DNA from: Acidimicrobiia bacterium
GTDB lineage: Bacteria; Actinomycetota; Acidimicrobiia; Spongiisociales; ZC4RG35
DNA: 53,808 nt
Direction: 5' to 3'
Assembly (NCBI GenBank): GCA_041599115.1
Contig: JBFHXF010000002.1
Location: forward strand, 1 to 53,808
Shown: in pieces, positions 9,969 through 23,879 of the stretch
Layout of the letters: the number at the start of each line of letters is the position of its first letter
Numbering within the stretch: the stretch's first letter is position 1
Translations under genes and position numbers: made by a program
Notes under the pieces: model-generated
Told to the model about the DNA's origin: nothing
Databases searched by the model: none
Seen by the model: only the letters and a program-made list of their open reading frames with translations

Positions 9969-11627
9969 TCAGCCGCGGATATCACGTCTCTCGAAAAGCG
10001 GTATCGACCCGGCGAGGAGGATCACGGCAAGCAATGAAAGGACAGCGGCGCTCCCCCAGTTCATGCCATTGAGAAGCGGCTCACCTTCGGTGTAGTAGTG
10101 AAAAGGCGAGAGACGGGCCCACACCGCGAGCCTGTCGCTGACGGAAAGGAATGAATCGGCGAAATAGGCGACAAAGGCCAGTCCCGAGGCGGTATATGCG
10201 GCCAACTTGCGGCTTCCGGTGGCCCCGCCGACCAGCAGGGCAACGGACCCGAAAGCCAGACCGAGCAACGCCGCCAGCAGGCTGGCCCCTCCGATATTGG
10301 GATATGAGATACCCAAGCCACCGAGAGCCGCGCCGGCGGACACACCGAGGAAAGTTGCCACGCCGAGAATGAAAGCCAGCAGCACCATGGCCAGGGCCTT
10401 CTCCAGCACGATCCGGGATCTCTTCACCGGGTTGGACAGGAGCAGATCCATGGTGTTGGCCTCTTCCTCTCCGGCGAGACTCCGCGATCCAACGACGACC
10501 GTCACAACGATGATGGCCGCCGGGACAACCATGCTGAACAACTCGCCGTGAAACCATCCTTCGGGTGTCGACATATCGACTCCACCCACCAGGGCAAGCA
10601 CCGCCTTGGGCATCACTGCCATCAGATCCACCAGGACGCCGCTCAAAGCGTTGTACATCGGCCCCACGACGAGGGCGATGTAGAAGATGGCCATGGCCGA
10701 AACCACCGCAACACCGCGATACTCGGAGGTGGTCTTTGCGGCGATCGAAGAGACTTTTGCCGTTCCGGTTAGCCGCGCCGCCAGTTTGGCGGTCATGGGG
10801 TGCTCCTTGAGACGCTCGAGGAGCGACGAACCTCCCTCACCGGCACGAAGGTCCCGCCGGTTGACGCCGACGACAGCGACAGCAACGAGGAGGGCTGCGC
10901 CGCCAAGGAGGACAGCGAGATGCCCCCAGTCCACGCCATTGGACAGGGGTCGCGAAGAGTTGAAGTAGTACCAGGGAAACACTCTTGCGAAGTCCGCGAG
11001 GGATTCGATGAGAGGAAGCAATCCACCTGCGAGGAAGGACAGGATCAGGACTCCCGCCGACCATCCCGAGGCGCTGGTGCGATTCCCGGTCCAGGACCCG
11101 AGAAACAAGGCGAGAGCCCCAAAAAAGAGTGCGAGTGCAAACACGTGGGTCATGGCCGCGCCGAGTTCGATGCGCGACATGTCGGTCCCGTATGCCAGCG
11201 CCACCAGATACGAGCCTCCCCACACCAAGAATGTCGCCACCGCCAGCAAGACGGCCATCGCCGCGGTCTTTGACAAGAGCAGCTGGGTGCGACTTCTCGG
11301 GTTGGCCAGCAACACACCCATGGTGCCTGCGGCCTCTTCCCCGGCGATGGCGGAGGCTCCCATCGAAATGGCGAGGCCGGCCAATGCCAGGGGTGCCATC
11401 AAGTTCGACATCTCACCAAGGACCAGGGATCCCGCCGACGTCACGTCGGTTATGCCGACCACAGAGAGAAACGCCTCCGGAAGCGCGTTGAACATCTCCG
11501 AGATCGTCTGGTCCAGACCGGAGTAGGCAGCCAAGCCGAGCACCGCCACCGATACCACCCCGAGCACACCCACCAGAGTGGCAATCCGGCGATCCCGAAT
11601 CGATTTTGTGAAGACGTTGCCGAGCAT
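9969..11627 (-). CDS. ABC-2 type exporter permease, internally duplicated (two 6-TM halves)
   Basis: 552 aa and very hydrophobic. The two halves each carry an 'AGEEE(A/N)GTM(D/G)(V/L)LL(A/S)NP' motif. It overlaps the upstream ATPase gene by 1 nt. Confidence 0.8.
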   Translation of the reverse strand: MLGNVFTKSIRDRRIATLVGVLGVVSVAVLGLAAYSGLDQTISEMFNALPEAFLSVVGITDVTSAGSLVLGEMSNLMAPLALAGLAISMGASAIAGEEAAGTMGVLLANPRSRTQLLLSKTAAMAVLLAVATFLVWGGSYLVALAYGTDMSRIELGAAMTHVFALALFFGALALFLGSWTGNRTSASGWSAGVLILSFLAGGLLPLIESLADFARVFPWYYFNSSRPLSNGVDWGHLAVLLGGAALLVAVAVVGVNRRDLRAGEGGSSLLERLKEHPMTAKLAARLTGTAKVSSIAAKTTSEYRGVAVVSAMAIFYIALVVGPMYNALSGVLVDLMAVMPKAVLALVGGVDMSTPEGWFHGELFSMVVPAAIIVVTVVVGSRSLAGEEEANTMDLLLSNPVKRSRIVLEKALAMVLLAFILGVATFLGVSAGAALGGLGISYPNIGGASLLAALLGLAFGSVALLVGGATGSRKLAAYTASGLAFVAYFADSFLSVSDRLAVWARLSPFHYYTEGEPLLNGMNWGSAAVLSLLAVILLAGSIPLFERRDIRG

Positions 11628-12541
11628 CAGGCCGACTGCTCCTCCGGGACCGACTCCCGGTAGTAGGTGAGGAAGATCTCCTCGAGATCCGCCTCGACAC
11701 TGTTGAGATTGACCAGGTCGTGCGCCATCGCAGCACGCAGGAGACCAGCCATTGGGCCTTCGAAAGACACCGAGACACGGGATCCCTCGACGGTGATATC
11801 CCGCACCCCCTCGACATTTCGGAAAACCGACTCTGCCACCGGACCGCCGAATTGCATGTCCAACCTTCTGATCGCCTTCTTCTTCAGCGAGTCGATGGTC
11901 TCAACGACCGCCAGACGGCCCATCCGGATGATCCCCACCCGATGGGCCACCCGCTCCACTTCGGAAAGGGTGTGGCTCGACAAAAAGACAGTCCGGCCCT
12001 CGCGGGCGGTCTCTCTCAGGAGGGCCTGGAAATCCTGCTGGACGAGGGGATCGAGACCGCCACTGGGCTCATCGAGTATCAACACCTCCGGCCTGTTCAT
12101 GAATGCCTGGATCAGACCTAGCTTTTGCCGGTTCCCTGACGAGTAATCGCCCACTTTCCGACTGAGATCCGCTCCGAATCGATCGGCTAGCTGCTCGACG
12201 TAGGACCACTCCACCCCACCCCTCAAGTTGGCGAAATACGCGAGAGTCTCCCGGCCGGTCAGATTCGGGTAGAGGGCCAGATCGGCAGGGAGATAACCGA
12301 CATATCGTCGAATCTCGACCGAGAACTCGTGGGAATCCATCCCCAAGATCGAGGCCTTGCCGGCAGTAGGTCGAATCAGGTCGAGAAGGGTCCTGATAGT
12401 GGTGGTCTTGCCGGCACCGTTCGGACCGAGAAACCCGAAAACCTCACCGGGGCCAACGGAAAGATTGAGATCCACCAGGGCTTTGACATCTCCATAGTGC
12501 TTGGTCAGACCCTCAGCAAGAATTGCAGGCTGATCGCTCAT
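11627..12541 (-). CDS. ABC transporter ATP-binding protein
   Basis: Walker A 'GPNGAGKTT', signature 'YSSGNRQKLG', Walker B 'ILDEPSGGLD' and H-loop 'SSH'. Confidence 0.92.
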   Translation of the reverse strand: MSDQPAILAEGLTKHYGDVKALVDLNLSVGPGEVFGFLGPNGAGKTTTIRTLLDLIRPTAGKASILGMDSHEFSVEIRRYVGYLPADLALYPNLTGRETLAYFANLRGGVEWSYVEQLADRFGADLSRKVGDYSSGNRQKLGLIQAFMNRPEVLILDEPSGGLDPLVQQDFQALLRETAREGRTVFLSSHTLSEVERVAHRVGIIRMGRLAVVETIDSLKKKAIRRLDMQFGGPVAESVFRNVEGVRDITVEGSRVSVSFEGPMAGLLRAAMAHDLVNLNSVEADLEEIFLTYYRESVPEEQSA

Positions 12542-12649: not shown

Positions 12650-13537
12650 TCAGACCCCTGTCGTCATGGGCTCAGGCCGCAGTTTCTCGTCCTCTTCCTC
12701 GGACACCGCCGGCTGAGAGCGTCTCATCCACCACAACACGGCGAGACCGGCGACACCGGCGGCAAGGCCACTGATCTGGTTCCAGGTGAACGCTCCGATG
12801 ATGGCGTCACCGTTGCCGAAACGAAGACCATCGAGGATGAAGCGTTGGATCCCGTACCAGGCAACCCAGAGAAAGAAGAGTTGCCCGTAATGAAGACGGA
12901 CCCTCCGGTAGACCAGAAAAAGCACACCAATGAGAAACAGGGCCCCGATCATGTCGTACATCGCCACATGGTGGTAGACGCCACAGAAACCGTCTGGACG
13001 CGCTTGTGAGGCGACGCACTCGAGACCATTGTGCTGCGGGGCAACGTCGTATCCGGGCTTGATTCCATACCCCCACCAAACGTCGGTGGCGCGCCCGAGG
13101 TGCTCGACAATTGCCAGATCCCCGATGCGGCCGATGATGGTGCCCAGGGCCAAACCGAATGAGGACATGTCGAGAGTGGCAATGACCGGAAGCCCGACCT
13201 GTTTCATCCGCCAAACCCCGGCGATGATCCCCCCAGCGAACCCTCCCATGATCGAGAAATTGCCCTGGATGGGATTCAGCGCCGTCAACAGCGGCACACC
13301 GTCCATCAGCTGCGCCGGCATGGTGAAGTATCTGGCTCCAAGCAAGGCGCCGACAAGACCCCAGGTGACCGCCGATTGGTACTTGAGGGTGTCGAACCCC
13401 CTTTTTCCCATCTCTCTCGAGGCAAGCCAGGCGCCCGCCACGAACCCGATGGCGGCGAACAACCCGTGTAACGAGAAGTTGAACGGGCCCAACTGCCAGA
13501 TGGGGATAGGTGGATAGCTGAAGGCTGCGAACATCAC
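12650..13537 (-). CDS. lgt: Prolipoprotein diacylglyceryl transferase
   Basis: 295 aa. 'LGPFNFSLHGLFAAIGFVAG', 'GARYF', 'GGFAGG' and 'GRIGDL' match Lgt motifs. Confidence 0.9.
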   Translation of the reverse strand: MMFAAFSYPPIPIWQLGPFNFSLHGLFAAIGFVAGAWLASREMGKRGFDTLKYQSAVTWGLVGALLGARYFTMPAQLMDGVPLLTALNPIQGNFSIMGGFAGGIIAGVWRMKQVGLPVIATLDMSSFGLALGTIIGRIGDLAIVEHLGRATDVWWGYGIKPGYDVAPQHNGLECVASQARPDGFCGVYHHVAMYDMIGALFLIGVLFLVYRRVRLHYGQLFFLWVAWYGIQRFILDGLRFGNGDAIIGAFTWNQISGLAAGVAGLAVLWWMRRSQPAVSEEEDEKLRPEPMTTGV

Positions 13538-13609
13538 GGTGAGGGTACCCAGCGAATCGATCTATATGCCGACGGTCCACAGCTCACCTGAAGGCTAAAG
13601 TCCCCCGAC

Positions 13610-14746
13610 GTGAGCGACTTGCTGGCAGCCGTGTCCACGGCCCTGGACACACCCCAAGATCTGATCAAGAGATCCGCGGCGGCACGCGCCGCCGCCAACG
13701 GGACAAGTGTCGACGACGTCCTTGCCGCCTGGTCCGGCGGGGCACCCCTGGCGGCGCCTGCGCCCGCTCCCGCCGCTGCAGAGCAGACGCCCACCGTCAC
13801 AGAAGCGCCGGTGTCGGATTCGACCTTCGATAGCCCGGCTCCTCAAGCCGAGACGGCCGGCACCACCCACGCGCTTCTGGCTCAGGAACCGATCGCGGTG
13901 GCGGTACTCGACGAGCCGGAGGGGTTCGAGCCGGTGCCGGTGGGACAACGTGTGCGGGCGGCAACCAGGGTCGGGGCATGGACGGGAGGCATCCTTGGCC
14001 TGATTGGGTTCCTTGTGGCCACAACCCGGTGGGCTGGTAGCACGACGGTTACCGGTGAGGGACCTTACTCGCCTGTGATCCAGGCAGGCTCAACCTCGGT
14101 CATCCTCGGCCTCACTCTGGTGAGCGTCTTCTTCGGGGCAGTCGTGGCCGGATTGTCCCGGTCCGTTACCGGTTGGGTCAATCCCGGAATGCGCTTGAGC
14201 AACTCCGCCCGATCAACCACATGGATTGGAGGGTTCCTGGGACTCGTGCTCGGAGTTGTAGCCGGAGCCCTCTTGACGAGTTCCTTTGGCACTCCCATCG
14301 AAGGATCCGAGGGGCTGATTCAGATGCCGGTACTGGCGACTGTCTGGGTCATGATCGTCGGGGGAGCCTTCCTCGGTGGTCTGACCGCGGCCATAACCCA
14401 GGCCGTCGGCGTTCCCGTCTCCGTCACCGAGGACAGAGCCGAGATAGTCGCCGTCAAGGGCAGGCTGACCGCTGCTGTGGCGGTCCCCATGACGGCTCTA
14501 GTCGCGCTTTTGATCCTCGTACTCCCCTTTGCCTGGGCTCTGCTCGAGTCAAACGGGCTCACCTCCGGAGGAGCCGCCATTGTTGGCGTCATAACGGCGA
14601 TAGGCATTCTGGTGTTTGCCTCGCTGGCGGGAAGCAGGCCCAGCATCAAGCTCTCGCTTGGAGAAGGAATTGTCGCGGTCATTGGCATCGTGACAGTTGT
14701 TGGTGTGATCGTCGCGGTGTTTCTGGCCAGGGGCTCCGCCGGCTGA
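13610..14746 (+). CDS. 7-TM membrane protein with soluble N-terminal domain and Ala/Pro linker (paralog A)
   Basis: 378 aa with a GTG start. It is clearly paralogous to the next gene, sharing 'PGMRLS', 'MPV(L/I)AT', 'VTQA', 'LPFAWAL(L/I)ES', 'SGGA' and 'S(L/I)GEG'. I count seven hydrophobic helices by eye. Confidence 0.7.
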   Translation: MSDLLAAVSTALDTPQDLIKRSAAARAAANGTSVDDVLAAWSGGAPLAAPAPAPAAAEQTPTVTEAPVSDSTFDSPAPQAETAGTTHALLAQEPIAVAVLDEPEGFEPVPVGQRVRAATRVGAWTGGILGLIGFLVATTRWAGSTTVTGEGPYSPVIQAGSTSVILGLTLVSVFFGAVVAGLSRSVTGWVNPGMRLSNSARSTTWIGGFLGLVLGVVAGALLTSSFGTPIEGSEGLIQMPVLATVWVMIVGGAFLGGLTAAITQAVGVPVSVTEDRAEIVAVKGRLTAAVAVPMTALVALLILVLPFAWALLESNGLTSGGAAIVGVITAIGILVFASLAGSRPSIKLSLGEGIVAVIGIVTVVGVIVAVFLARGSAG

Positions 14747-14812
14747 CCCACCTCGGCAAGGAGCCCCATTCCGGGCCGCTTCGACGGGGAAGGCAGGGCT
14801 AGTGTCCTGTCG

Positions 14813-15991
14813 ATGAGCGACCAGCCTCCAGAATCGGTCCTGGTGAGACCTGATCCTTCCAGTTCCCCAGAAGCCATCCCAATCAGGCGACGTCTCCTCA
14901 TGGTGCTTCGTGTCGGCGCCGTGACCGGCGGTGGCCTCGGTCTGGTGGGATCCCTTGTGGCGCTGCTGGTATCGGTCACGACCAGCGCTGAGAACGGCCC
15001 GCTCATCCAAAGTGACGCTGTCTCGGTGATCCTGAGTGGTGCCCTGATCGGCAGCCTGATGGGCGTGATCATCGCCATCACCTCCCGATTGATGGGTGAT
15101 CGCGTGAGCCCGGGCATGCGTCTCAGCAGCCCGACCAGTGCCACGGCCCGGCTTGGAGCCGTTGTGGGCTTGCTTCTTGGTGCACTCGAAAGCGCCATTC
15201 TGACCGGGCTGTTCGCAACCGGGGTGGCTGGAAACCAGGGCCCGGTCGAAATGCCAGTGATCGCCACTTTCTTGGTGATGGTCCTCGGCGGGATTCTGTT
15301 GGGCACGGTCACCGCGGTCGTCACCCAGGCGGCAGACATCCCTGTTGCCGTCTCAGAGAGCGTCGACGAGATCACCACTGTGCGAAAGAGGCTGACCGCA
15401 GCATTGGGAGTCCCGCTAACGGCCTTGCTGATCCTGCTGATAATCGTGCTTCCGTTTGCCTGGGCCCTCATCGAATCGGACCATCTCGCCTCAGGTGGCG
15501 CGGTTGTGGTCGGGATAGTTGCATCGCTTGCCATCCTCGCCATTGCTACCTCCGGAAGGACACTTCCCCGCCTGGGGATCTCGATCGGAGAGGGAGTTCT
15601 GGCGACCACTGCGGTCGTCATGATCATCGCTGCAGTTGCTGTGCTCCTCGTGGTCAGGGAGCCTGGCGGGCCCGTGGCATCGGGAGGCGGAGGCAGTGTC
15701 GCCATAACGGCAACCGGCGACATCACCTTCGACCAGAACGCTTGGACCTCGGAGGAAGGCGCGATAACCATCATCTATACCGATGAAGGCCCGCTCCGCC
15801 ACACCCTCCTCGTCGAAGGACACGAATCAGATCTCGAATTGGAAGTAAAACAGGACGGACAGGTCGATCAGGGCGTCATCAACCTCCCGGCTGGGACCTA
15901 CACCTTGTATTGCGGTATCAAGGGGCATCGCAAGGCAGGGATGGAAGGCACCCTCACCGTCACCGCGACACCCGCCCCGCCGGCCACCTGA
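14813..15991 (+). CDS. 7-TM membrane protein fused to a C-terminal type-1-copper cupredoxin domain (paralog B)
   Basis: 392 aa. The C-terminal roughly 95 aa read 'VAITATGDITFDQ...RHTLLVEG...GTYTLYCGIKGHRKAGMEGTLTVTA'. Candidate ligands are His (RHTL), Cys367 (15911-15913), His372 (15926-15928) and Met377 (15941-15943), in the Cupredoxin_1/rusticyanin-like spacing C-x4-H-x4-M. Confidence 0.8.
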   Translation: MSDQPPESVLVRPDPSSSPEAIPIRRRLLMVLRVGAVTGGGLGLVGSLVALLVSVTTSAENGPLIQSDAVSVILSGALIGSLMGVIIAITSRLMGDRVSPGMRLSSPTSATARLGAVVGLLLGALESAILTGLFATGVAGNQGPVEMPVIATFLVMVLGGILLGTVTAVVTQAADIPVAVSESVDEITTVRKRLTAALGVPLTALLILLIIVLPFAWALIESDHLASGGAVVVGIVASLAILAIATSGRTLPRLGISIGEGVLATTAVVMIIAAVAVLLVVREPGGPVASGGGGSVAITATGDITFDQNAWTSEEGAITIIYTDEGPLRHTLLVEGHESDLELEVKQDGQVDQGVINLPAGTYTLYCGIKGHRKAGMEGTLTVTATPAPPAT

Positions 15992-16153
15992 AACGAACCG
16001 GCGCTGCCGTTCTCCGGCTCAGATATCATCGAGAATCGGCGACAAGACAGGGGGTCACACGCCTAGGCTTTTCCACCGTGACGGGCACGCATTGGGACTC
16101 CCCTGATGATCGACGAGCGTGCCGGTACCCGTGAAGAGGAAAGAGGAGGATTG

Positions 16154-16591
16154 ATGCGTTTAACGAGAATGGTGATGGCGTTTGCACTGATTGCGATGGT
16201 GCTGGCCGCCTGCACCAGCAGCGGCTCGAGCGTCGACGTCTCGCTTTATGAATGGGGTCTGGACCGGGCACCGACCAGTGTCAGTGCCGGCGACGTCACC
16301 TTCAAGGCAACCAACGATGGCAGCGAGACGCACGAGATGGTGGTCGTGAAAGCAGACTCGGCCGCGGACATCCCGACCGACGCGGACGGCGCGGCGGACG
16401 AGAGTCAGATGGACGAAACAGTGTTCATAGGCGAGGTTGAGGATGTGGAAGCCGGTGCCAACAAGAGCGTGACCCTCACACTCGAGCCAGGCACTTATGT
16501 CATCTTCTGCAATGTCACCGAAACCGAGTCGGACGGGACGGTTGAGAGTCATTTCGCCAAGGGGATGTACAACACCATCACCGTCAGCTGA
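16154..16591 (+). CDS. Cupredoxin-domain lipoprotein
   Basis: The ATG at 16154 is preceded by a strong SD (GAGGAGGA). The signal peptide has a lipobox 'MVLAAC'. The cupredoxin pattern is 'VTFKATNDGSETHEMVVV ... GTYVIFCNVTETESDGTVESHFAKGMYNTITV' (His, Cys, His, Met candidates with a long Cys-His loop). Confidence 0.8.
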   Translation: MRLTRMVMAFALIAMVLAACTSSGSSVDVSLYEWGLDRAPTSVSAGDVTFKATNDGSETHEMVVVKADSAADIPTDADGAADESQMDETVFIGEVEDVEAGANKSVTLTLEPGTYVIFCNVTETESDGTVESHFAKGMYNTITVS

Positions 16592-16643
16592 TCAACCAAA
16601 CCACCTGACAAATAGGCATTGATCACCCGTTGAGTCTGCAGAT

Positions 16644-17615
16644 TCAGCGGGTGATCTGCATTCCGTTCACGGCAGCCGACAGATCGCCGTCGAGCAGGGC
16701 CGCCCTGATCCCCTCGGCGACTTCGACGGCTACCCGGAGTTGAGCCTCCCTGGTCGAAGCGCCCAGATGCGGGGTCAAGACCAGATTCGGCGCCATCCGA
16801 AGCGGACTGTCAGGAGGAAGAGGCTCGCTCTCATAGACGTCCAGGGCGGCGCCCGCAATTCTCGCCTCGCTCAGGGCGCTTGCGAGCGCGGCCTCATCGA
16901 CCACACCACCCCTTGACACATTTATCAGCACCACCCCCGGCCTCATCCGGGCAAAGGCTTCATCAGAGATCATTCCGTGGGTTTCTACATTGAGGGGAAC
17001 GTGACATGAGATCACGTCGGCGGAGTCGAGAACCGCATCGAAACCGGTGAGTGTGATTCCCAGCTCGACCGATCGCTCCTGGGTGAGGTAGGGATCGAAG
17101 GCAATCACTTTCATGCCAAATGCCTGACACCGCTTCGCCACCTCGGCTCCAATCCTGCCGGCACCCACCAGACCCAGAGTTCGACCGTGTAGTTCGGTGC
17201 CCATGAACGCAGACCGTTCCCACCTGCCCTCACGAACCGAATGATCAGCGGGAGGGATCGATCGGATTGCAGACAACATGAGAGCCATGGTGAGCTCCGC
17301 CGCGGCGATGGTGTTGCCGTTCGGAGCGTTCATCACAGCGATTCCCCGCGCGGTGGCAGCTCTTAGGTCGATGTTGTCTATCCCCACGCCTGCCCGGCCG
17401 ACGACTGCCAGTCGGGGAGCCATTGCCATCATCGCGTCGTCTACTGTCGTGGCACTGCGGACTATTAGGGCGGAAGCCCGGCCGAGGGCCTCCTTGAATA
17501 CATCCGACGATGAGTCGTCGATGTTGACCACCTCGAATCGATCATCCTCGGTGAGAACCTCCAAGCCCTTTGGAGAGACACGATCCGTGGCAACGACGAC
17601 CAGACCACCGCTCAC
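16644..17615 (-). CDS. D-isomer-specific 2-hydroxyacid dehydrogenase (phosphoglycerate dehydrogenase / hydroxypyruvate reductase-like, no ACT domain)
   Basis: 323 aa. NAD-binding 'GLVGAGRIGAEVA', plus 'HVPL' and 'LINVSRGGVVDE...TPHLGAST'. Confidence 0.85.
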   Translation of the reverse strand: MSGGLVVVATDRVSPKGLEVLTEDDRFEVVNIDDSSSDVFKEALGRASALIVRSATTVDDAMMAMAPRLAVVGRAGVGIDNIDLRAATARGIAVMNAPNGNTIAAAELTMALMLSAIRSIPPADHSVREGRWERSAFMGTELHGRTLGLVGAGRIGAEVAKRCQAFGMKVIAFDPYLTQERSVELGITLTGFDAVLDSADVISCHVPLNVETHGMISDEAFARMRPGVVLINVSRGGVVDEAALASALSEARIAGAALDVYESEPLPPDSPLRMAPNLVLTPHLGASTREAQLRVAVEVAEGIRAALLDGDLSAAVNGMQITR

Positions 17616-18727: not shown

Positions 18728-19027
18728 CTATCCATCACGAACAGCGACCGCATAGCGCACACCTTCCCTTTCCACCCAATCCACCTGGACCGGCTCACCG
18801 GTCCGCTGATGTTCGCTCAGATGCGGCAACGGAAACTCATAGTCGCCATCATCCAGGGTTCGAAAAGCCATCTCCTCGCCCCCAGCCAGGACAGTGAAAG
18901 CGTTCACTTCCGTGAGCGTCCCCTCCACGTTCACCACGATCCCGTCCACAGTGCCCGACTGAGAGGAGCACGCCGCCAGCAAGAGGCTCGCCACCACGAC
19001 CGCCACCGAACTTCGGCTGATAATCAT
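18728..19027 (-). CDS. Small lipoprotein, hypothetical (99 aa)
   Basis: Signal peptide plus lipobox 'MIISRSSVAVVVASLLLAAC'. Its start abuts the ctaG stop with no gap. Confidence 0.6.
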   Translation of the reverse strand: MIISRSSVAVVVASLLLAACSSQSGTVDGIVVNVEGTLTEVNAFTVLAGGEEMAFRTLDDGDYEFPLPHLSEHQRTGEPVQVDWVEREGVRYAVAVRDG

Positions 19028-19840
19028 TCAACCGACCTGAAGCGATGATTCCAATTCGTCCTGCTCCCTTTCCTCACGGGTCCACCGCGCCCAGATGACG
19101 GCAATCGTGCCCCACAGGAGAAAACCGCCACCGAGTTTCATGACGATGCCCGAAATGGTCTGATCGGAGACCGCACTCAACCCGAAGGCCTCAGCGGCGT
19201 CGCCGTAAAAGGGATAGAGGGCGACACTGGAGAAGGTGAGAAAGGACGCAGGGATGGTCGGCAGCAGCGACTGACCGAACAGGTAGACGATCTGACCAGG
19301 GCGACGCAATTTGGGGATCTGCGCGGTCGGGGAAAGAACGGGCATCCACATGAAAACGGCGGAGGCAAACAGCCAAACGTGCACCGAGAAGTGAGCGAGT
19401 TCGTTCGTCAACATCCAATCCACCAGATCCGGCCAGTGGATCACGATGAACGTGGCGTTGAAGATGACGAACGCCGCGACCGGCCTTGCCAGGGGACGAA
19501 TGACCCGGGCGACTCTCGGGTTTCCCAATGTGACGTCAGCCAGCCAGCGGGGAGTCCCCATCAACATCAGTGGCGGCACGACCAGGGCCAGGACCATGTG
19601 CTCGATCATGTGCAGAGTGAACAGGGATGTGTCGGCCAGGTCGTGGATGGGCCAACCGGACACCAGGTAGATCATGACGATGGCGCTGTACCACTGCCAT
19701 CGCTGTCGCCTGGTGGCACCGGGCCGGCCCGGTGCCACCTGGGGCCGTATCCGCTTGTCGGCGTACCAAAAGCCGAAGGCAAGGATGAAAACCAGGGCCC
19801 AAACATCGAAATGAGGGTGCCAGACCGGCAGCAGATCCAC
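19028..19840 (-). CDS. ctaG: Cytochrome c oxidase assembly factor CtaG (caa3_CtaG family)
   Basis: 270 aa polytopic protein. 'LHMIEHMVLALVVPPLMLMGTP' is typical of Bacillus-type CtaG. Its position directly after ctaF matches that family. Confidence 0.8.
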   Translation of the reverse strand: MDLLPVWHPHFDVWALVFILAFGFWYADKRIRPQVAPGRPGATRRQRWQWYSAIVMIYLVSGWPIHDLADTSLFTLHMIEHMVLALVVPPLMLMGTPRWLADVTLGNPRVARVIRPLARPVAAFVIFNATFIVIHWPDLVDWMLTNELAHFSVHVWLFASAVFMWMPVLSPTAQIPKLRRPGQIVYLFGQSLLPTIPASFLTFSSVALYPFYGDAAEAFGLSAVSDQTISGIVMKLGGGFLLWGTIAVIWARWTREEREQDELESSLQVG

Positions 19841-19842
19841 TA

Positions 19843-20154
19843 CTAGCTACCCCGGATGACGAGAACCCCCAACGCGGTAAGGACGATGGTGTAGAGACTT
19901 GCAGCAAGCACGAAGCCGGCGGTGAAGAACCTGCTGAGCATCGCCTTCTCATACCTCAGATGCATGTAGAAGCCGATCACGATGACGAATTTGAGCGCGG
20001 CCAGGACCAGCAGGGCGAGTGTGTTGACGACCGCCAGGTGGAGTGAACGATTGATGTAATACATCGCCACTTCGACTGCTGTCAACCCCGCGAGGACAAC
20101 GGCAATCTTCCAGTACATGGCGGGTGTGGGGTGGGGGCGTTCTGTGGAGGTCAT
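19843..20154 (-). CDS. ctaF: Cytochrome c oxidase subunit IV (prokaryotic COX4 type)
   Basis: The start MTSTERPHPTPAMYWKIAVVLAGLTAVEVAMYY overlaps the ctaE stop (ATGA). It has three TM helices and 'FVIVIGFYMHLRYE'. The track ORF extends to 20295 but overlaps ctaE. Confidence 0.75.
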   Translation of the reverse strand: MTSTERPHPTPAMYWKIAVVLAGLTAVEVAMYYINRSLHLAVVNTLALLVLAALKFVIVIGFYMHLRYEKAMLSRFFTAGFVLAASLYTIVLTALGVLVIRGS

Positions 20155-20780
20155 GCGGGCGGCACCGAGAGCAAGTACACCGCGGTGAAGATGATGATCC
20201 AGATTATGTCGACGAAGTGCCAGTACAGGCCGACCAGCTCGAGATTCAGGCCGTGCTTCTCGCTCAAGCCGCCCTTCCGGCGTGAGATGCCCCAAAGGGA
20301 CAGCAACATGATCACCCCGACCGCCACATGGGTGCCGTGGAAGCCGGTCAGCAGATAGAAGGCTGACGCCGCAGGATTTGTGGTGAGCTTCATGCCCTCA
20401 TTGGTGATGAACTCGGTGAATTCGAACACCTGGCCACCGAGAAAGACGGCACCCAGGGCCGCGGTGGCAAAGAGCCAGGTGCGGGTGCCGTTCTGGTCCT
20501 TTCGGGTGAGGGCATTATGAGCCAGCACCATTGTCAATGAGCTCATCAAGAGGACGAAGGAGCTGACCGAGGTGAAAGGGATGTCGTAGACCTCTGCCGG
20601 GTAAGTGCCCTGAAAGCCCCCGCGGTGCGAATAGAGCAGGTAGTTGGAGATAAGGGCACCAAAAAACAAGAACTCCGAGCTGAGAAACAGCCACATCCCC
20701 AGCTTGCGATTGTCAATCCCGGTTGACTCGTGCTCGGGATGGGCGGTCTCCATGGCGGCATCGTGTGCGATATCAGTCAT
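20151..20780 (-). CDS. ctaE: Cytochrome c oxidase subunit III
   Basis: 209 aa. It has 'LGMWLFLSSEFLFFGALI', 'FYLLTGFHGTHVAVG' and 'YWHFVDIIWIIIF'. Confidence 0.92.
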   Translation of the reverse strand: MTDIAHDAAMETAHPEHESTGIDNRKLGMWLFLSSEFLFFGALISNYLLYSHRGGFQGTYPAEVYDIPFTSVSSFVLLMSSLTMVLAHNALTRKDQNGTRTWLFATAALGAVFLGGQVFEFTEFITNEGMKLTTNPAASAFYLLTGFHGTHVAVGVIMLLSLWGISRRKGGLSEKHGLNLELVGLYWHFVDIIWIIIFTAVYLLSVPPA

Positions 20781-22806
20781 CGTATGCCACCTTCGTGTCG
20801 CCCTGGGATCCGGCAGCCTCGTGCTCGGGATGGGGCTCTTCGAGCGGCTCCATCGCCCAGCCCATCACCGCCGAGAGAGAGATAATTGCACCTATCAGGA
20901 TCAAGGCCTTGCCCCACAGGGTGGTGTGGTAGATGATCCCGTAGAAGATGATCGGGATGCCCATGGCCATGAAGAAGGGGAAATATGTCTGATTGGGCAA
21001 ATGAATCGGGCTCTCCGGATTGAGTTGTTCGCGCTCGATCTCGGCAACGATCTCATCCTTGTCCGGACGGGCCACGGCCCGGCCCTCCTCGTCCTCGCCG
21101 TACTTGAGGTGCCAGAAATGGTCGAGACCGGTGACCACGGGCGGGACGGCGAAGTTGTATTCGGGGGTCGGATTGGGTGACATCCATTCGACCGTCCGGG
21201 CGTCCCATGGATCGAGCCCCGAGGGCGCTCCCCGCCTTCGACTGGTGTACCAGTTGTACATGAAGACCAATATCGAGATCGCGATGATCCAGGCGCCGAC
21301 GGTGACCGCGAAGTTCCACGGTTGAAGTCCTGTCTCCGGCGCATATTTCCAAGTACGACGCACCATCCCCTGCAAGCCCAGCCAATGCATCGGGGCAAAA
21401 GTGAGGTTGAAGCCAAACAGCATCAGCCAGAAGTGGAGCTTCCCGACCTTCTCGTTCATCACTCGGCCCTTGAGCTTGGGAAACCAGTAGTAGAGGCCGG
21501 CGAATATCCCGAATAGGGCGCCGCCGAACAGGACGTAATGGAAGTGGGCCACGATGTAATAGGTGTCGGTCTGCTGCCAGTCGGAGGGGACCACCGCATG
21601 GGTGACGCCGGAGAGCCCACCAATGGTGAACATCGCCACGAAGCCGATGGAAAACAGCATCGGAACGGTGAGACGTATTCGCCCCATCCACATCGTGCCC
21701 AGCCAGTTGAAGATCTTGATCCCGGTGGGGATGGCAATCGTCATCGTCGCCAGACCGAATGCAGCCTGTGCCACCGGGGTGATCCCCGAGGCAAACATGT
21801 GGTGGGCCCAGACCCCGAATCCCAGGAAACCGATGGCGGCGCCAGCGAAAACGACCGCCGAGTAGCCAAACAGGGGCTTGCGTGAGAAGACCGGGAGGAC
21901 TTCGGACACGATGCCCATGGCGGGCAGGACCAGGATGTAGACCTCGGGATGGCCGAAGAGCCAGAAGAGGTGCTGCCACAAGATGGGATCACCCCCTCCC
22001 GTCGGAGCGAAGAACAGGGAGCCGAACTGCCTGTCGAAGGTGACCATGAAGAGGGCGATGGCAATTATGGGAATCGAGAAGAGGAGGAGGAAGGCCACCA
22101 CCATCGACATCCAGACGAACACGGGCATCCGCAGCAGCCGCATCCCTTTTGCCCGCATGTTGAAGATCGTCACCAGAAAGTTGATTGCCGAAATCAATGA
22201 GGCCAGACCCAGGATCTGGAGGCCGAGCGCCCAGAAGTCCATGGCAGTTCCGGCCGAGTAGAGCGGCCCGGCGTTCGGCTGATAGGCGAACCATCCGGCG
22301 TCGGGTGAATCAGCCAGCCAGTTGAGGGTCCCCGGGCCACCTCCTGCAGCGAGGTTGCCACCCACTCCAAGGCCCCCGGTGGGTGCGAATGACGTCCCGA
22401 AGATGAAGGTCGAATAGAGGAAGATCCCCCCGAAGAAGAACACCCACCATGAAAGGGCGTTGAGTCGGGGGAAGGCGACATCGCGCGCCCCGATCAACAG
22501 GGGCAGCATGTAGTTCATGAAAGCCGCCGACACGGGCATCACGAACAAGAACACCATGGTGGTGCCGTGCATGGTGAACATGGCGTTGTAGGCGCCCGCA
22601 GTGAGAAACTCGGAGTTCGCAGTCGCCAGCTGGGTGCGTATCAGGAGCGCCTCGATGCCGCCGAGGAGGAAGAAGAAGAAGGCGGCATAGCCGTACATGA
22701 TTCCGATTCGCTTGTGGTCGACAGTGGTGATCCAGGACCAAAGACCGGTCGTCGAAGCGGGCCGTCTGAAGATCGTGGTCGCCGGGCGTTCGGCTGTGGC
22801 AGTCAT
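20773..22806 (-). CDS. ctaD: Cytochrome c oxidase subunit I (heme a / a3-CuB), with C-terminal two-helix extension
   Basis: 677 aa. It has 'DHKRIGIMY', 'WFFGHPEVYILVLP', 'WAHHMF' and 'HFHYVLFGG'. An extra roughly 110 aa tail contains 'IHLPNQTYFPFFMAMGIPIIFYGII'. Confidence 0.95.
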   Translation of the reverse strand: MTATAERPATTIFRRPASTTGLWSWITTVDHKRIGIMYGYAAFFFFLLGGIEALLIRTQLATANSEFLTAGAYNAMFTMHGTTMVFLFVMPVSAAFMNYMLPLLIGARDVAFPRLNALSWWVFFFGGIFLYSTFIFGTSFAPTGGLGVGGNLAAGGGPGTLNWLADSPDAGWFAYQPNAGPLYSAGTAMDFWALGLQILGLASLISAINFLVTIFNMRAKGMRLLRMPVFVWMSMVVAFLLLFSIPIIAIALFMVTFDRQFGSLFFAPTGGGDPILWQHLFWLFGHPEVYILVLPAMGIVSEVLPVFSRKPLFGYSAVVFAGAAIGFLGFGVWAHHMFASGITPVAQAAFGLATMTIAIPTGIKIFNWLGTMWMGRIRLTVPMLFSIGFVAMFTIGGLSGVTHAVVPSDWQQTDTYYIVAHFHYVLFGGALFGIFAGLYYWFPKLKGRVMNEKVGKLHFWLMLFGFNLTFAPMHWLGLQGMVRRTWKYAPETGLQPWNFAVTVGAWIIAISILVFMYNWYTSRRRGAPSGLDPWDARTVEWMSPNPTPEYNFAVPPVVTGLDHFWHLKYGEDEEGRAVARPDKDEIVAEIEREQLNPESPIHLPNQTYFPFFMAMGIPIIFYGIIYHTTLWGKALILIGAIISLSAVMGWAMEPLEEPHPEHEAAGSQGDTKVAYDD

Positions 22807-23879
22807 TTGTTGCTATCCAACCAGATGATCAAGTTGTCTATCTCCTGCTCGGTGAGGGCCAGGTTGGGCATGTAGCTCCCTGGCTTGACGTTCGGGGGGT
22901 CGGACAGCCATCTCTTCAACGCAGCGTCGTGTGTCTCGCCCTGGGCAGGAAGAGTCGCTCCGGCAAAGACATCCCGGGAGGCAAAATGGGTCAACTCGGG
23001 CCCGTTGAAGGCACTGGCTTCAACGATGTTCGACGCACTCGCATCATCGAATCGAACGGTGTGACACTGGACGCAGCCTTTGCTCTGATAGACCTGATAC
23101 CCGTCGAACTCCGGGGCCCCCGGCGCGGGTAATGCGGCGGGGGCCTTCTGTCCGGCCAGCCACGATTGGAAGTCAGCGGTTGACAGCGCCACCACCCTGG
23201 TGCGCATCAGGGAATGGCTCAGACCACAGAACTCTGCGCAATGACCCCAAAACTCGCCGGGGTGATCGGCTTCAAGCCGGAGTCTGGTCGTCTGACCAGG
23301 GATGACGTAACGTTTCCCATTGAGAGCCGGCACCCAGAAGTTGTGAATGACATCCTCTGACGTCATCACCGCGCAGACCTCCTCACCTGCCGGGATGACC
23401 ATCACGTTTGCCGTATCGATGCCGGCGTCCGGGTAATGGAATTCGAACCACCATTGATGAGCCGTTATCTGCACTTCCATGGCGTTAGACCCACATTCCG
23501 TCAGGTCGAAGACTGCCGCCGTTGTCGGAACCGCGATGCCCGCGAGTATCAAGGCAGGGATCACCGTCCACAGGACCTCGAGCTTGGGGCTGCCGTGTAA
23601 CTGCTTCGGCTCCCTGGCGCCGTCGCGATCGCGGAACAGGAACACGGCTGCCAGGACCCCACCCTCCACCAGGACGAACACTCCCGCGGCGATCCAGAAG
23701 ACCGGCCAGAACAGGTGGTTGATGCGCTCAGAGAATGGTCCCGCAGGATTGAACGTCGTCAGCGGTCCGTCAGGGTTGCGGGATAAGAACAGGAACGATC
23801 CGATGAGGGCCAACGCAGCCAGGGTGATGATTGTTCTGACTGCGACCTTGCGAAACCCTCCCATGCGGATTTGCATCAT
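22803..23879 (-). CDS. ctaC: Cytochrome c oxidase subunit II with fused C-terminal cytochrome c domain (caa3 type)
   Basis: 358 aa. The CuA site is 'HCAEFCGLSHSLM', with 'DVIHNFWVP' nearby. The C-terminal heme-c motif is 'CVQCHTV', and a distal Met lies in 'GSYMPNL'. Confidence 0.93.
   Translation of the reverse strand: MMQIRMGGFRKVAVRTIITLAALALIGSFLFLSRNPDGPLTTFNPAGPFSERINHLFWPVFWIAAGVFVLVEGGVLAAVFLFRDRDGAREPKQLHGSPKLEVLWTVIPALILAGIAVPTTAAVFDLTECGSNAMEVQITAHQWWFEFHYPDAGIDTANVMVIPAGEEVCAVMTSEDVIHNFWVPALNGKRYVIPGQTTRLRLEADHPGEFWGHCAEFCGLSHSLMRTRVVALSTADFQSWLAGQKAPAALPAPGAPEFDGYQVYQSKGCVQCHTVRFDDASASNIVEASAFNGPELTHFASRDVFAGATLPAQGETHDAALKRWLSDPPNVKPGSYMPNLALTEQEIDNLIIWLDSNK

What the first reader, a model, noticed from the sequence alone, without database searches (positions are those of the whole stretch)
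13610..15991. Tandem paralogous 7-TM proteins, only one of which carries an extracytoplasmic cupredoxin domain
- The two adjacent genes encode clearly homologous 7-helix cores. Shared motifs are PGMRLS, MPV(L/I)AT, VTQA, LPFAWAL(L/I)ES, SGGA and S(L/I)GEG.
- Their termini differ. Paralog A has a soluble N-terminal domain (MSDLLAAVSTALDTPQDLIKRSAAARAAANGTSVDDVLAAW) and an Ala/Pro linker. Paralog B has a C-terminal blue-copper domain.
- An odd helix count with a basic N-terminus predicts that the cupredoxin faces outside.
- I do not recognise the 7-TM core as any characterised family.
- The pair looks like a heterodimeric membrane scaffold for a copper redox centre.
Basis: partly seen in the sequence, partly recalled or inferred. 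Interest (0 to 1): 0.7.

Follow-up and report, generated by a model that had tools for sequence, protein, structure and literature searches.

The report
Membrane-anchored blue-copper proteins beside a cytochrome oxidase
Two neighbouring genes encode related seven-helix membrane proteins of an unnamed family found so far only in Acidimicrobiia and a few other Actinomycetota; one carries a blue-copper domain on the outside of the cell, and the likeliest role is tethering copper electron carriers that feed the nearby caa3 cytochrome oxidase.

Summary
A (13610-14746) and B (14813-15991) are paralogues: 42% identity over 284 aa, E 9e-54. B ends in a type-1 cupredoxin with His330/Cys367/His372/Met377.

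The 7-TM core matches nothing in Pfam, NCBIfam, PDB sequences or PDB folds.

A belongs to a large family with no curated name (at least 461 clusters; every named source is an Acidimicrobiia or Actinomycetota MAG). In 15 related genomes a single A-type gene, with no B, sits at this locus about 3 kb from a caa3 oxidase operon. So the pair is not conserved in the closest relatives.

- Single-chain versions exist that combine the N-domain, 7-TM core and cupredoxin; one sits at this same locus.
- Modules of an A-type or fusion gene, a B or shortened 3-TM-cupredoxin gene, and a lipoprotein cupredoxin recur in four other genomes.
- In more distant Actinomycetota a 3-TM-cupredoxin plus lipoprotein cupredoxin directly follow ctaG inside the cox operon.
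- A's 45-aa N-domain also occurs, often in tandem, on FixO- and FixP-like cytochrome c subunits, so it is cytoplasmic.

Best reading (inferred, about 0.5): membrane-tethered blue-copper electron carriers for the caa3 oxidase on a lineage-specific anchor. An A/B heteromer is untested.

The parts
13610..14746 (+). Gene A: N-domain + Ala/Pro linker + 7-TM core, 378 aa, GTG start. It lacks the acidic C-terminal tail that its orthologues carry.
   Evidence: ORF. At least 461 homologous clusters. Orthologous position in 15 loci. AF2 model. Tail comparison.
13610..13744 (+). A, residues 1-45: cytoplasmic three-helix N-domain (RSAAARA...G..V..VL..W).
   Evidence: AF2 pLDDT about 90 with three helices. 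The same domain occurs 1-6 times N-terminal of FixO/FixP-like cytochromes c. It is the only copy in the window.
13745..13924 (+). A, residues 46-105: Ala/Pro/Glu-rich disordered linker.
   Evidence: pLDDT below 50 for residues 45-100. Variable length and sequence across the family alignment.
13925..14743 (+). A, residues 106-378: 7-TM core. Invariant glycines spaced four apart in TM1, TM3 and TM4, and two conserved outer loops.
   Evidence: Helices 111-141, 161-190, 200-226, 241-266, 276-313, 321-341 and 350-374. Invariant columns.
14813..15991 (+). Gene B: 7-TM core + C-terminal type-1 cupredoxin, 392 aa, no N-domain.
   Evidence: ORF. BLASTP against A, E 9e-54. AF2 mean pLDDT 84.
15695..15988 (+). 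B, residues 295-392: cupredoxin domain with ligands H330, C367, H372 and M377.
   Evidence: Pfam SoxE 25.0 bits, above the cut-off of 21. PDB sequence hits to the NiR cupredoxin, auracyanin B and plastocyanins. Foldseek to azurin, auracyanin and 4hcf. Invariant ligands. Positions.
16154..16591 (+). Gene C: lipoprotein cupredoxin, 145 aa. Lipobox LAAC with Cys20; putative ligands H60, C119, H133 and M138; GGAGG ribosome-binding site upstream of the ATG.
   Evidence: Sequence. Pfam Cupredoxin_1 at 2.1e-5 (24.9 bits, below the cut-off of 27) and an EfeO Cup-like match. PDB 6kol auracyanin, E 2e-4. Orthologues follow the B/B'/fusion gene in L002, L004, L020, L021, L022 and L023.
19028..23879 (-). 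Context: caa3-type cytochrome c oxidase cluster. It holds Caa3_CtaG, subunit IV, III and I, and subunit II with a fused cytochrome c domain. It is the likely functional partner.
   Evidence: Pfam. It lies next to the A-type gene in 15 A-only loci plus L006, and next to a fusion gene in L022.
18728..19027 (-). Context: conserved 99-aa lipoprotein next to ctaG, function unknown.
   Evidence: ORF. Conserved in 14 loci. No Pfam hit.
12650..13537 (-). Context: lgt (prolipoprotein diacylglyceryl transferase), divergent from A. A conserved neighbour.
   Evidence: Pfam LGT 1.2e-32. Synteny.

Best explanation
A and B are two members of an uncharacterised family of N-in/C-out seven-helix membrane proteins, seen so far only in Acidimicrobiia and other Actinomycetota MAGs.

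The complete form of the family is one chain with four parts:
- a cytoplasmic 45-aa three-helix domain;
- a disordered Ala/Pro linker;
- the 7-TM core;
- an extracytoplasmic type-1 (blue) copper cupredoxin.

In this genome the parts are divided between two paralogues. A keeps the cytoplasmic domain and B keeps the cupredoxin. A third gene adds a lipid-anchored cupredoxin.

The most likely function is as follows. B and the lipoprotein are membrane-tethered blue-copper electron carriers on the outer face of the membrane. They pass electrons to the neighbouring caa3-type cytochrome c oxidase. The donor upstream of them (a quinol oxidase such as complex III or ACIII) is not identified in the window. 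The 7-TM core would be an anchor and docking subunit rather than a transporter. A would be the conserved oxidase-associated member, with which B may associate through its glycine-rich helices.

Shown: paralogy, domain make-up, copper ligand set, topology signal, synteny with caa3, existence of fused and split forms, and the N-domain shared with FixO/FixP-like subunits.

Inferred: electron transfer to caa3, the anchor or docking role, and A-B association.
For: 1. The cupredoxin has the classical His/Cys/His/Met set, invariant in 10 homologues. Its closest solved relatives are electron carriers: auracyanin, plastocyanin, azurin and the NiR cupredoxin domain.
2. Topology places it outside. Lys/Arg lie only in alternate loops. 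The N-domain must be cytoplasmic because in other proteins it precedes a single TM helix and a c-type cytochrome domain, and haem c is attached outside the membrane (established knowledge).
3. Link to caa3, first arrangement. In 15 loci the A-type gene lies in the order lgt-A-serA-aminotransferase-lipoprotein-ctaG-coxIV-III-I-II. L006 has a single fusion at the same locus. L022 has a fusion plus lipoprotein cupredoxin directly abutting the cox cluster.
4. Link to caa3, second arrangement. In L072 and L084 a 3-TM-cupredoxin lies immediately downstream of ctaG, followed by a second cupredoxin. In L072 its start overlaps the ctaG stop and the second cupredoxin is a lipoprotein. L055 also has cupredoxin matches just after ctaG.
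5. Control: only 4 of 79 loci fetched with the cupredoxin-bearing query have cox genes within 7 kb, so the linkage is not a general property of such cupredoxins.
6. Among the columns invariant across 30 family members there is no His, Cys, Met, Asp or Glu. Instead glycines recur four residues apart (G122/G126/G130, G207/G211/G215, G252/G256). This fits a packing or anchor role.
7. The N-domain also occurs on FixO- and FixP-like subunits next to a haem-copper oxidase subunit I in L019. It therefore marks terminal-oxidase-associated membrane proteins.
8. A TM-anchored carrier paired with a lipoprotein carrier recurs in 8 of the 9 genomes where a family cupredoxin is present (window, L002/L024, L004, L020-L023, L072; not L006).
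Against: - No experiment or structure shows any contact with the oxidase.
- Most family members (A-type) have no cupredoxin at all, so the core must have a function that does not depend on carrying one.
- In L002/L004/L023 and L020 the module is not near cox genes, within the 10-kb and about 3.7-kb flanks that could be read.
- serA and an aminotransferase separate A from the cox cluster in most loci, so they are neighbours, not one operon.
- The homology of the L072/L084 3-TM anchor to TM5-7 of the family is weak (8-9 bits, high compositional bias).
- L021 has a Sco1-like gene downstream and ctaG is a neighbour, which also fits a copper-delivery role.
- The lipoprotein cupredoxin has an unusual 13-residue Cys-His spacing and resembles the EfeO Cup domain.
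Confidence: 0.5

Rival explanations
1. Copper trafficking or assembly. The cupredoxin domains act as copper chaperones or insertases for the CuA/CuB sites of the caa3 oxidase, and the 7-TM core moves or holds copper at the membrane.
For: Neighbours include Caa3_CtaG. In L021 a Sco1/SenC-like ORF with a CPDIC motif follows the lipoprotein cupredoxin. In L072/L084 the 3-TM-cupredoxin follows ctaG.
Against: The ligand set is the electron-transfer type (His/Cys/His/Met). By my own knowledge, characterised chaperones such as CupA or PCuAC use Cys/Met or His/Met sets instead. There is no invariant His, Cys or Met in the TM core. There is no Pfam hit to CopD, CtaG, FTR1 or other copper or iron permeases.
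Confidence: 0.15
2. The 7-TM core is a general caa3-oxidase or supercomplex accessory or assembly subunit. Its role has nothing specific to do with cupredoxins, which are occasional add-ons that simply use it as a convenient anchor.
For: A-type proteins without a cupredoxin are the large majority and sit beside the cox cluster in 15 loci. The N-domain is shared with cbb3 oxidase subunits.
Against: Cupredoxin-bearing members are scattered over the family tree (unbootstrapped NJ). A-type tails align with the linker and first strand of the cupredoxin. This suggests the cupredoxin is old in the family rather than an occasional add-on. This rival overlaps with the best explanation more than it excludes it.
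Confidence: 0.15
3. An oxidase-independent extracytoplasmic redox role, for example oxidation of Fe(II) or another periplasmic or extracellular substrate, with the cupredoxins as the catalytic or first-acceptor site.
For: The lipoprotein cupredoxin's best NCBIfam hit is the EfeO cupredoxin region (1.5e-8, far below the family cut-off). The modules in L002/L004/L023/L020 are not next to cox genes.
Against: There are no EfeU/FTR1, EfeB or multicopper-oxidase partners in the window. The core has no REXXE-type motifs. There is a strong positional link to caa3 in most loci.
Confidence: 0.08
4. The 7-TM core is a transporter or channel, and the JGI label 'MFS family permease' is right.
For: Some JGI records carry that name.
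Against: It has seven helices, not twelve. No MFS or other transporter family appeared in Pfam even at E up to 10. No PDB sequence or fold match. No conserved charged residues within the helices.
Confidence: 0.04

Closest known systems
Auracyanins of Chloroflexus and Roseiflexus (PDB 1qhq/1ov8, 6kol)
   Same: They are membrane-tethered type-1 copper proteins. By my own knowledge they carry electrons between a quinol oxidase (ACIII) and terminal acceptors, and occur as paired forms with different tethers. They are the best or near-best solved relatives of both B's domain and the lipoprotein.
   Different: By my own knowledge auracyanins use a single N-terminal helix or lipid tether. Here the cupredoxin is C-terminal to a 7-TM (or 3-TM) anchor of an uncharacterised family. 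Sequence identity is only about 20%.
Sulfocyanin SoxE of the Sulfolobus SoxM terminal oxidase supercomplex (Pfam PF06525)
   Same: It is the only Pfam family that B passes at the curated cut-off (25.0 against 21 bits). By my own knowledge it is a membrane-anchored blue copper protein that is a component of a terminal oxidase complex.
   Different: The match covers only the C-terminal copper loop (residues 339-386). The NCBIfam sulfocyanin equivalog scores 17 against a cut-off of 168. By my own knowledge SoxE has one N-terminal helix and is archaeal.
AcoP and rusticyanin in the Acidithiobacillus ferrooxidans rus operon
   Same: A cupredoxin gene ('cup') lies just before the COX2 gene in a cytochrome c oxidase operon, and rusticyanin is the main carrier (bioRxiv 10.1101/2020.03.01.968255, read). 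By my own knowledge AcoP has one membrane helix and co-purifies with the oxidase. L072/L084 show the same logic, with cupredoxins inside the cox operon.
   Different: Different phylum and an acidophilic iron-oxidation context. No 7-TM anchor and no cytoplasmic domain. No detectable sequence relationship beyond the shared fold.
Bacillus subtilis cytochromes c550 (CccA, TM-anchored) and c551 (CccB, lipoprotein)
   Same: By my own knowledge this is a Gram-positive solution to the lack of a periplasm: one helix-anchored and one lipid-anchored small carrier serving a caa3 oxidase. This parallels B plus the lipoprotein cupredoxin.
   Different: Those carriers use haem c, not copper. There is no polytopic anchor.
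FixO/CcoO and FixP/CcoP-like subunits of Acidimicrobiia carrying the same N-domain (L019, P0185, P0193, P0214, P0245, P0264)
   Same: They share A's 45-aa N-domain and Ala/Pro/Glu linker, followed by a membrane anchor and an outward-facing redox domain.
   Different: The redox domain is cytochrome c, the anchor is a single helix, and the N-domain is often present in 2-6 tandem copies.

Membership tests
Type-1 (blue) copper cupredoxins (Pfam clan; PF00127 Copper-bind, PF06525 SoxE) | Cupredoxin Greek-key beta-sandwich fold | tested here: met
   In the AF2 model of B the cupredoxin region has pLDDT of 82-97 by 10-residue block, all beta strands. Foldseek gives azurin, auracyanin and 4hcf at E about 1e-6 to 1e-7, probability 1.0, target-normalised TM up to 0.83.
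Type-1 (blue) copper cupredoxins (Pfam clan; PF00127 Copper-bind, PF06525 SoxE) | Ligand set His ... Cys-Xn-His-Xn-Met | tested here: met
   H330, C367, H372 and M377 in B. All four are invariant in 10 homologues.
Type-1 (blue) copper cupredoxins (Pfam clan; PF00127 Copper-bind, PF06525 SoxE) | Score above the curated Pfam cut-off | tested here: inconclusive
   SoxE 25.0 bits against 21 (passes). Copper-bind 14.4 bits against 21.2 (fails).
Type-1 (blue) copper cupredoxins (Pfam clan; PF00127 Copper-bind, PF06525 SoxE) | Binds one Cu with a 600-nm charge-transfer band and reversible one-electron redox | not testable with these tools
   Needs the expressed protein, with UV-vis, EPR and electrochemistry.
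Sulfocyanin proper (NCBIfam TIGR03094 equivalog) | Full-length match above the equivalog cut-off | tested here: not met
   17 bits against a cut-off of 168.4; only residues 350-383 match.
Lipid-anchored blue copper carriers (auracyanin/halocyanin type), tested for gene C | Signal peptide with a lipobox Cys, followed by a cupredoxin with type-1 ligands | tested here: met
   MRLTRMVMAFALIAMVLAAC with Cys20, then H60, C119, H133 and M138. 6kol auracyanin at E 2e-4. Pfam Cupredoxin_1 scores 24.9 bits, just under the cut-off of 27. The Cys-His spacing of 13 residues is atypical.
FTR1/EfeU seven-helix iron permeases (partner of EfeO) | Pfam FTR1 match and REXXE motifs in TM1 and TM4 | tested here: not met
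   FTR1 is not among the hits for any of 12 members at E up to 10. There is no REXXE motif in A or B (sequence).
CopD / Caa3_CtaG polytopic copper-handling or assembly proteins | Pfam match and conserved His/Met in the helices | tested here: not met
   No match. No invariant His, Met or Cys in the core. The real Caa3_CtaG is a separate gene at 19028-19840.
MFS permeases (name given by JGI to some homologues) | Twelve helices in two 6-TM halves; Pfam MFS match | tested here: not met
   Seven helices. No MFS hit.
Unnamed 'N-domain + 7-TM' family (A-type proteins) | 45-aa N-domain, Ala/Pro linker, and a 7-TM core with RVGAWTG, NPGMxLS, QLPVLxT and VLPFAWALxES motifs | tested here: met
   A aligns end to end with 15 members at 56-62% identity and carries all these motifs. 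B has the core motifs but no N-domain.
Unnamed 'N-domain + 7-TM' family (A-type proteins) | Acidic C-terminal tail (EEPAAEPEAAVxLVIG) | tested here: not met
   The window's A stops at ARGSAG. All 15 aligned orthologues have the tail.

The most novel reading that the evidence does not exclude
The 7-TM proteins and their 45-aa cytoplasmic N-domain define a previously unrecognised accessory system of terminal oxidases in Acidimicrobiia.

The same cytoplasmic three-helix module is attached to caa3-associated 7-TM/cupredoxin proteins and to the FixO/FixP cytochrome c subunits of a cbb3-type oxidase. It would act as a common docking or organising handle. It would gather membrane-tethered copper and haem electron carriers around the oxidases, forming a new kind of respiratory supercomplex organisation on a membrane fold with no solved relative.
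Probability: 0.25. Interest if true: 0.7.

Novelty: new variant of a known kind. Interest (0 to 1): 0.5.

Why it matters
Gram-positive bacteria have no periplasm to hold soluble carriers, so they must tether them. How the abundant but mostly uncultured Acidimicrobiia wire their caa3 oxidase is not known.

This locus shows a lineage-specific solution: type-1 copper domains on a polytopic anchor, paired with a lipoprotein cupredoxin. It also exposes two protein modules with no curated family and no solved structure:
- the 7-TM core, with at least 461 clusters at 90% identity;
- a portable cytoplasmic N-domain shared with cbb3 oxidase subunits.

If the anchor proves to be an oxidase subunit, it adds to the growing list of lineage-specific supercomplex components in Actinomycetota. 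It would also give a handle for annotating several hundred 'hypothetical' proteins.

The split, fused and truncated variants form a neat natural series for testing which part does what.

Tried and rejected
- Pfam and NCBIfam on A, B and 12 family members found nothing for the core or the N-domain. The weak hits (DUF4153, DUF6057, YesK, COX7C and others) are scattered and inconsistent.
- PDB sequence profiles for the core and for the N-domain found nothing below E 0.4.
- Foldseek of the A model against the PDB gave a best E of 0.16 and TM 0.17 (rhodopsin, GPCRs, assorted transporters), which is noise. Foldseek of the B model returned only cupredoxin matches among the 50 best listed, so the better core model could not be tested on its own.
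- The third homologue search, with the N-domain profile, returned only short fragments and no architectures. The architectures came from the representative search instead.
- The promoter and terminator scan of 13400-16750 found no more than the shuffles, so the operon structure is not established.
- Literature searches for Acidimicrobiia with cupredoxin or plastocyanin found no papers.
- A targeted HMM test of the L072/L084 3-TM anchor against the family profile was only suggestive (8-9 bits, in register, biased composition). I do not claim homology of that anchor.
- A contig look-up for the B-type protein P0177 gave a 1.5-kb contig with no context.
- I rejected the idea that B is a decaying duplicate. 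It has an intact ORF, keeps nearly all the family's invariant residues and has an intact copper site.
- I rejected a recent tandem duplication. A is 55-60% identical to orthologues in other genomes but only 42% identical to B. On the full core, B groups with another B-type protein (P0146).
Full report
**1. The observation**

The window is a GC-rich (about 61%) chromosomal stretch. ORF A (13610-14746, GTG start, 378 aa) and ORF B (14813-15991, 392 aa) lie head to tail on the + strand, 66 bases apart.

BLASTP of A against B gives 42% identity over 284 residues, E 9e-54.

A has an N-terminal soluble segment and an Ala/Pro linker. B has a C-terminal cupredoxin: Pfam SoxE scores 25.0 bits, above the cut-off of 21.

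It has a GGAGG ribosome-binding site, a lipoprotein signal peptide (lipobox LAAC, Cys20) and a second cupredoxin with His60/Cys119/His133/Met138.

A 484-aa ORF on the opposite strand (14320-15774) is a GC shadow ORF.

**2. Anatomy and topology**

AF2 models A as follows:
- a confident three-helix bundle (residues 2-41, pLDDT about 90);
- a disordered linker (residues 45-100);
- seven helices, with TM1-4 at pLDDT 80-89 and TM5-7 at 55-68.

With a deeper alignment, B gives mean pLDDT 84. TM1-4 are above 90, TM5-7 are at 60-75 and the cupredoxin is above 90. Short beta hairpins are predicted in the TM1-2 and TM3-4 loops.

In B all Lys/Arg outside the helices lie in the N-terminal segment and loops 2-3, 4-5 and 6-7 (11 in total). 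There are none in loops 1-2, 3-4 and 5-6. This is a clean positive-inside signal for N-in/C-out, which puts the cupredoxin outside.

The four copper ligands of B (H330, C367, H372, M377) are invariant in ten homologues. The nearest solved relatives are electron carriers:
- the N-terminal cupredoxin domain of a nitrite reductase, auracyanin B and plastocyanins by sequence;
- azurin, auracyanins and a Bacillus anthracis Cupredoxin_1 protein by fold.

Columns invariant over 30 family members contain no His, Cys, Met, Asp or Glu. They do contain glycines spaced four residues apart in TM1, TM3 and TM4.

**3. Is the core a known family?**

No, on every test available:
- Pfam and NCBIfam give nothing for A or for the core of B.
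- Scanning 12 members one by one gives only scattered weak hits.
- A family profile finds nothing in PDB sequences.
- The A model finds nothing in the PDB by fold; the best match has E 0.16 and TM 0.17.

Some JGI records call homologues 'MFS family permease'. Seven helices and the lack of any MFS hit argue against that label.

**4. The family and its architectures**

A first search with B found only eight full-length relatives. Five of them (476-496 aa) are single chains that carry everything: N-domain, linker, 7-TM core and cupredoxin.

A profile without the cupredoxin found at least 461 clusters of about 385-400 aa. Most have no name, and every organism named by a source is an Acidimicrobiia or Actinomycetota MAG.

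An exhaustive HMM search of 1.84 billion representatives gave 407 hits, of which about 60 are full-length family clusters.

The architectures seen are:
- N-domain + 7-TM + acidic tail, by far the most common (A-type);
- N-domain + 7-TM + cupredoxin (fusion);
- 7-TM + cupredoxin without the N-domain (B-type: window B, P0146, P0177, L021);
- a short form, B', with only the amphipathic helix, TM5-7 and the cupredoxin (L002, L004, L020, L023, P0224).

The acidic tail of A-type proteins aligns with the linker and first strand of the cupredoxin in the fusions. The window's A lacks this tail.

B starts MSD, as the N-domain does, and then continues at the end of the linker. This hints at an in-frame loss of the N-domain, but it rests on three residues.

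**5. Genomic context**

I mapped window proteins onto 19 related loci with tblastn. In 15 of them the order is gcs2 - luciferase-like monooxygenase - lgt(-) - A(+) - serA(-) - aminotransferase(-) - small lipoprotein(-) - ctaG - coxIV - coxIII - coxI - coxII(-). Two of the 15 lack the small lipoprotein and ctaG hits (L003, a short contig, and L014), L014 also lacks lgt, and L003 and L010 end before parts of the cox cluster. Each has a single A-type gene, with no B and no lipoprotein cupredoxin.

The oxidase is caa3-type, with a cytochrome c domain fused to subunit II.

L006 has a single fusion gene at exactly this locus. So the pair is not conserved in the nearest relatives. The window is the only locus seen with A plus a full-length B.

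Comparable modules do recur:

| Locus | Arrangement |
|---|---|
| L002/L024, L004, L023 | A + B' + lipoprotein cupredoxin; the B' start overlaps or abuts the A stop |
| L020 | fusion + B' + lipoprotein cupredoxin |
| L022 | fusion + lipoprotein cupredoxin, directly abutting the lipoprotein-ctaG-cox cluster |
| L021 | B-type + lipoprotein cupredoxin + a Sco1-like ORF |
| L072, L084 | coxII-I-III-(IV)-ctaG, then a 3-TM-cupredoxin and a second cupredoxin; in L072 the start overlaps the ctaG stop and the second cupredoxin is a lipoprotein |

L072 and L084 are more distant Actinomycetota. L055 is similar to them. The 3-TM anchor in L072/L084 resembles TM5-7 only weakly.

As a control, only 4 of the 79 loci fetched with the cupredoxin-bearing query have cox genes within 7 kb. 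Cox linkage is therefore specific, not a generic property of such cupredoxins.

Unbootstrapped NJ trees place window A among the A-only orthologues. They place B on a long branch with another B-type protein, and they scatter the cupredoxin-bearing members across the family. The A/B split is therefore old. Alternatively, B and the lipoprotein gene arrived together.

**6. The N-domain**

The exhaustive search also found many proteins that match only profile positions 1 to about 50, often in 3-6 tandem copies. In these proteins the repeats precede a single TM helix and a cytochrome c domain (Pfam Cytochrom_C, Cytochrome_CBB3, FixP_N) or a FixO-like domain.

In L019 a haem-copper oxidase subunit I gene is followed by a FixO-like gene and then a cbb3-subunit-III-like cytochrome c gene. 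Each of these two carries the N-domain.

Haem c is attached on the outer face of the membrane (established knowledge), so the N-domain is cytoplasmic. It has no Pfam or PDB sequence match. A holds the only copy in the window.

**7. Interpretation**

The most economical reading has four parts:
- B and the lipoprotein cupredoxin are membrane-tethered type-1 copper electron carriers on the outer face.
- They are functionally tied to the adjacent caa3 oxidase.
- The 7-TM module is a lineage-specific anchor or docking subunit.
- A is the conserved, oxidase-associated member.

This resembles auracyanins, sulfocyanin, AcoP/rusticyanin and the Bacillus c550/c551 pair in logic. The anchor and the cytoplasmic domain are different.

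Domain content, ligands, the topology signal, synteny and the range of architectures are shown. Electron transfer to caa3, the docking role and A-B association are inferred.

The main weakness is that most family members have no cupredoxin, so the core must do something on its own. An accessory or assembly role for the oxidase is a live rival that overlaps with the best reading. Copper delivery (ctaG and Sco neighbours) and an EfeO-like metal-oxidation role are less likely, given the ligand set and the absence of partner genes.

**8. Verdict**

The functional kind, tethered blue-copper carriers near a terminal oxidase, is known. The 7-TM anchor family and the portable N-domain are uncharacterised. 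I rate it a new variant of a known kind, with interest 0.5.

**Caveats**
- The locus scans depend on short peptide patterns and so under-sample the family.
- Several loci come from nanopore assemblies with frameshifts.
- TM-region profile scores are prone to compositional bias.
- Model coordinates and PAE were not available, so domain packing could not be examined.

Noticed in passing
window 16154-16591 (+): Third gene of the unit: a 145-aa lipoprotein cupredoxin (lipobox LAAC; His60/Cys119/His133/Met138, with an unusually long 13-residue Cys-His spacing). Its best hits are the EfeO Cup region and Roseiflexus auracyanin 6kol.
   Followed up: yes
window 13610-13744; L019 9992-11000; proteins P0183, P0185, P0193, P0204, P0245, P0264: A's 45-aa three-helix N-domain is a portable module. 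It occurs 1-6 times in tandem at the cytoplasmic N-termini of FixO- and FixP-like cytochromes c and of other TM proteins in Acidimicrobiia. It has no Pfam or PDB sequence match.
   Followed up: partly
window 9969-12541 (-): An ABC-2-type permease (552 aa) and an ABC ATPase (304 aa) sit between the luciferase-like monooxygenase and lgt. The 15 syntenic loci have no such genes at this spot, so this looks like a lineage-specific insertion.
   Followed up: partly
window 18728-19027 (-): A 99-aa lipoprotein (lipobox LAAC) with no family match is conserved immediately next to ctaG in 14 related loci. It may be an oxidase accessory protein.
   Followed up: partly
window 20773-22806 (-): Cytochrome oxidase subunit I is 677 aa, but the Pfam COX1 match ends at residue 506. 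The C-terminal extension of about 170 aa is unexplained.
   Followed up: no
window 14700-14812; alignment A4: A-type orthologues end in a conserved acidic tail (EEPAAEPEAAVxLVIG) that aligns with the linker and first strand of the cupredoxin in the fused forms. The window's A stops before it, and the 66-base spacer does not encode it.
   Followed up: partly
L021 2365-3087: A Sco1/SenC-like ORF (CPDIC motif, identified from its sequence only, not scanned against any library) directly follows the B-type gene and the lipoprotein cupredoxin in another Acidimicrobiia MAG.
   Followed up: no
L072 5967-8057; L084 6072-8022; L055 5826-7468: In more distant Actinomycetota, the cox operon continues past ctaG into a 3-TM-cupredoxin gene and a second cupredoxin. 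In L072 the 3-TM-cupredoxin start overlaps the ctaG stop and the second cupredoxin is a lipoprotein.
   Followed up: partly
window 45236-47428 (-): A 730-aa protein combines a NarI-like membrane domain, 4Fe-4S cluster motifs and two CCG domains (HdrD/GlpC-like membrane oxidoreductase). It lies next to the proline dehydrogenase and P5C reductase genes.
   Followed up: no
window 14320-15774 (-): A 484-aa ORF antisense to A and B is a shadow ORF typical of high-GC DNA, rich in Ala, Thr, Pro, Ser and Arg. It is not a gene.
   Followed up: no
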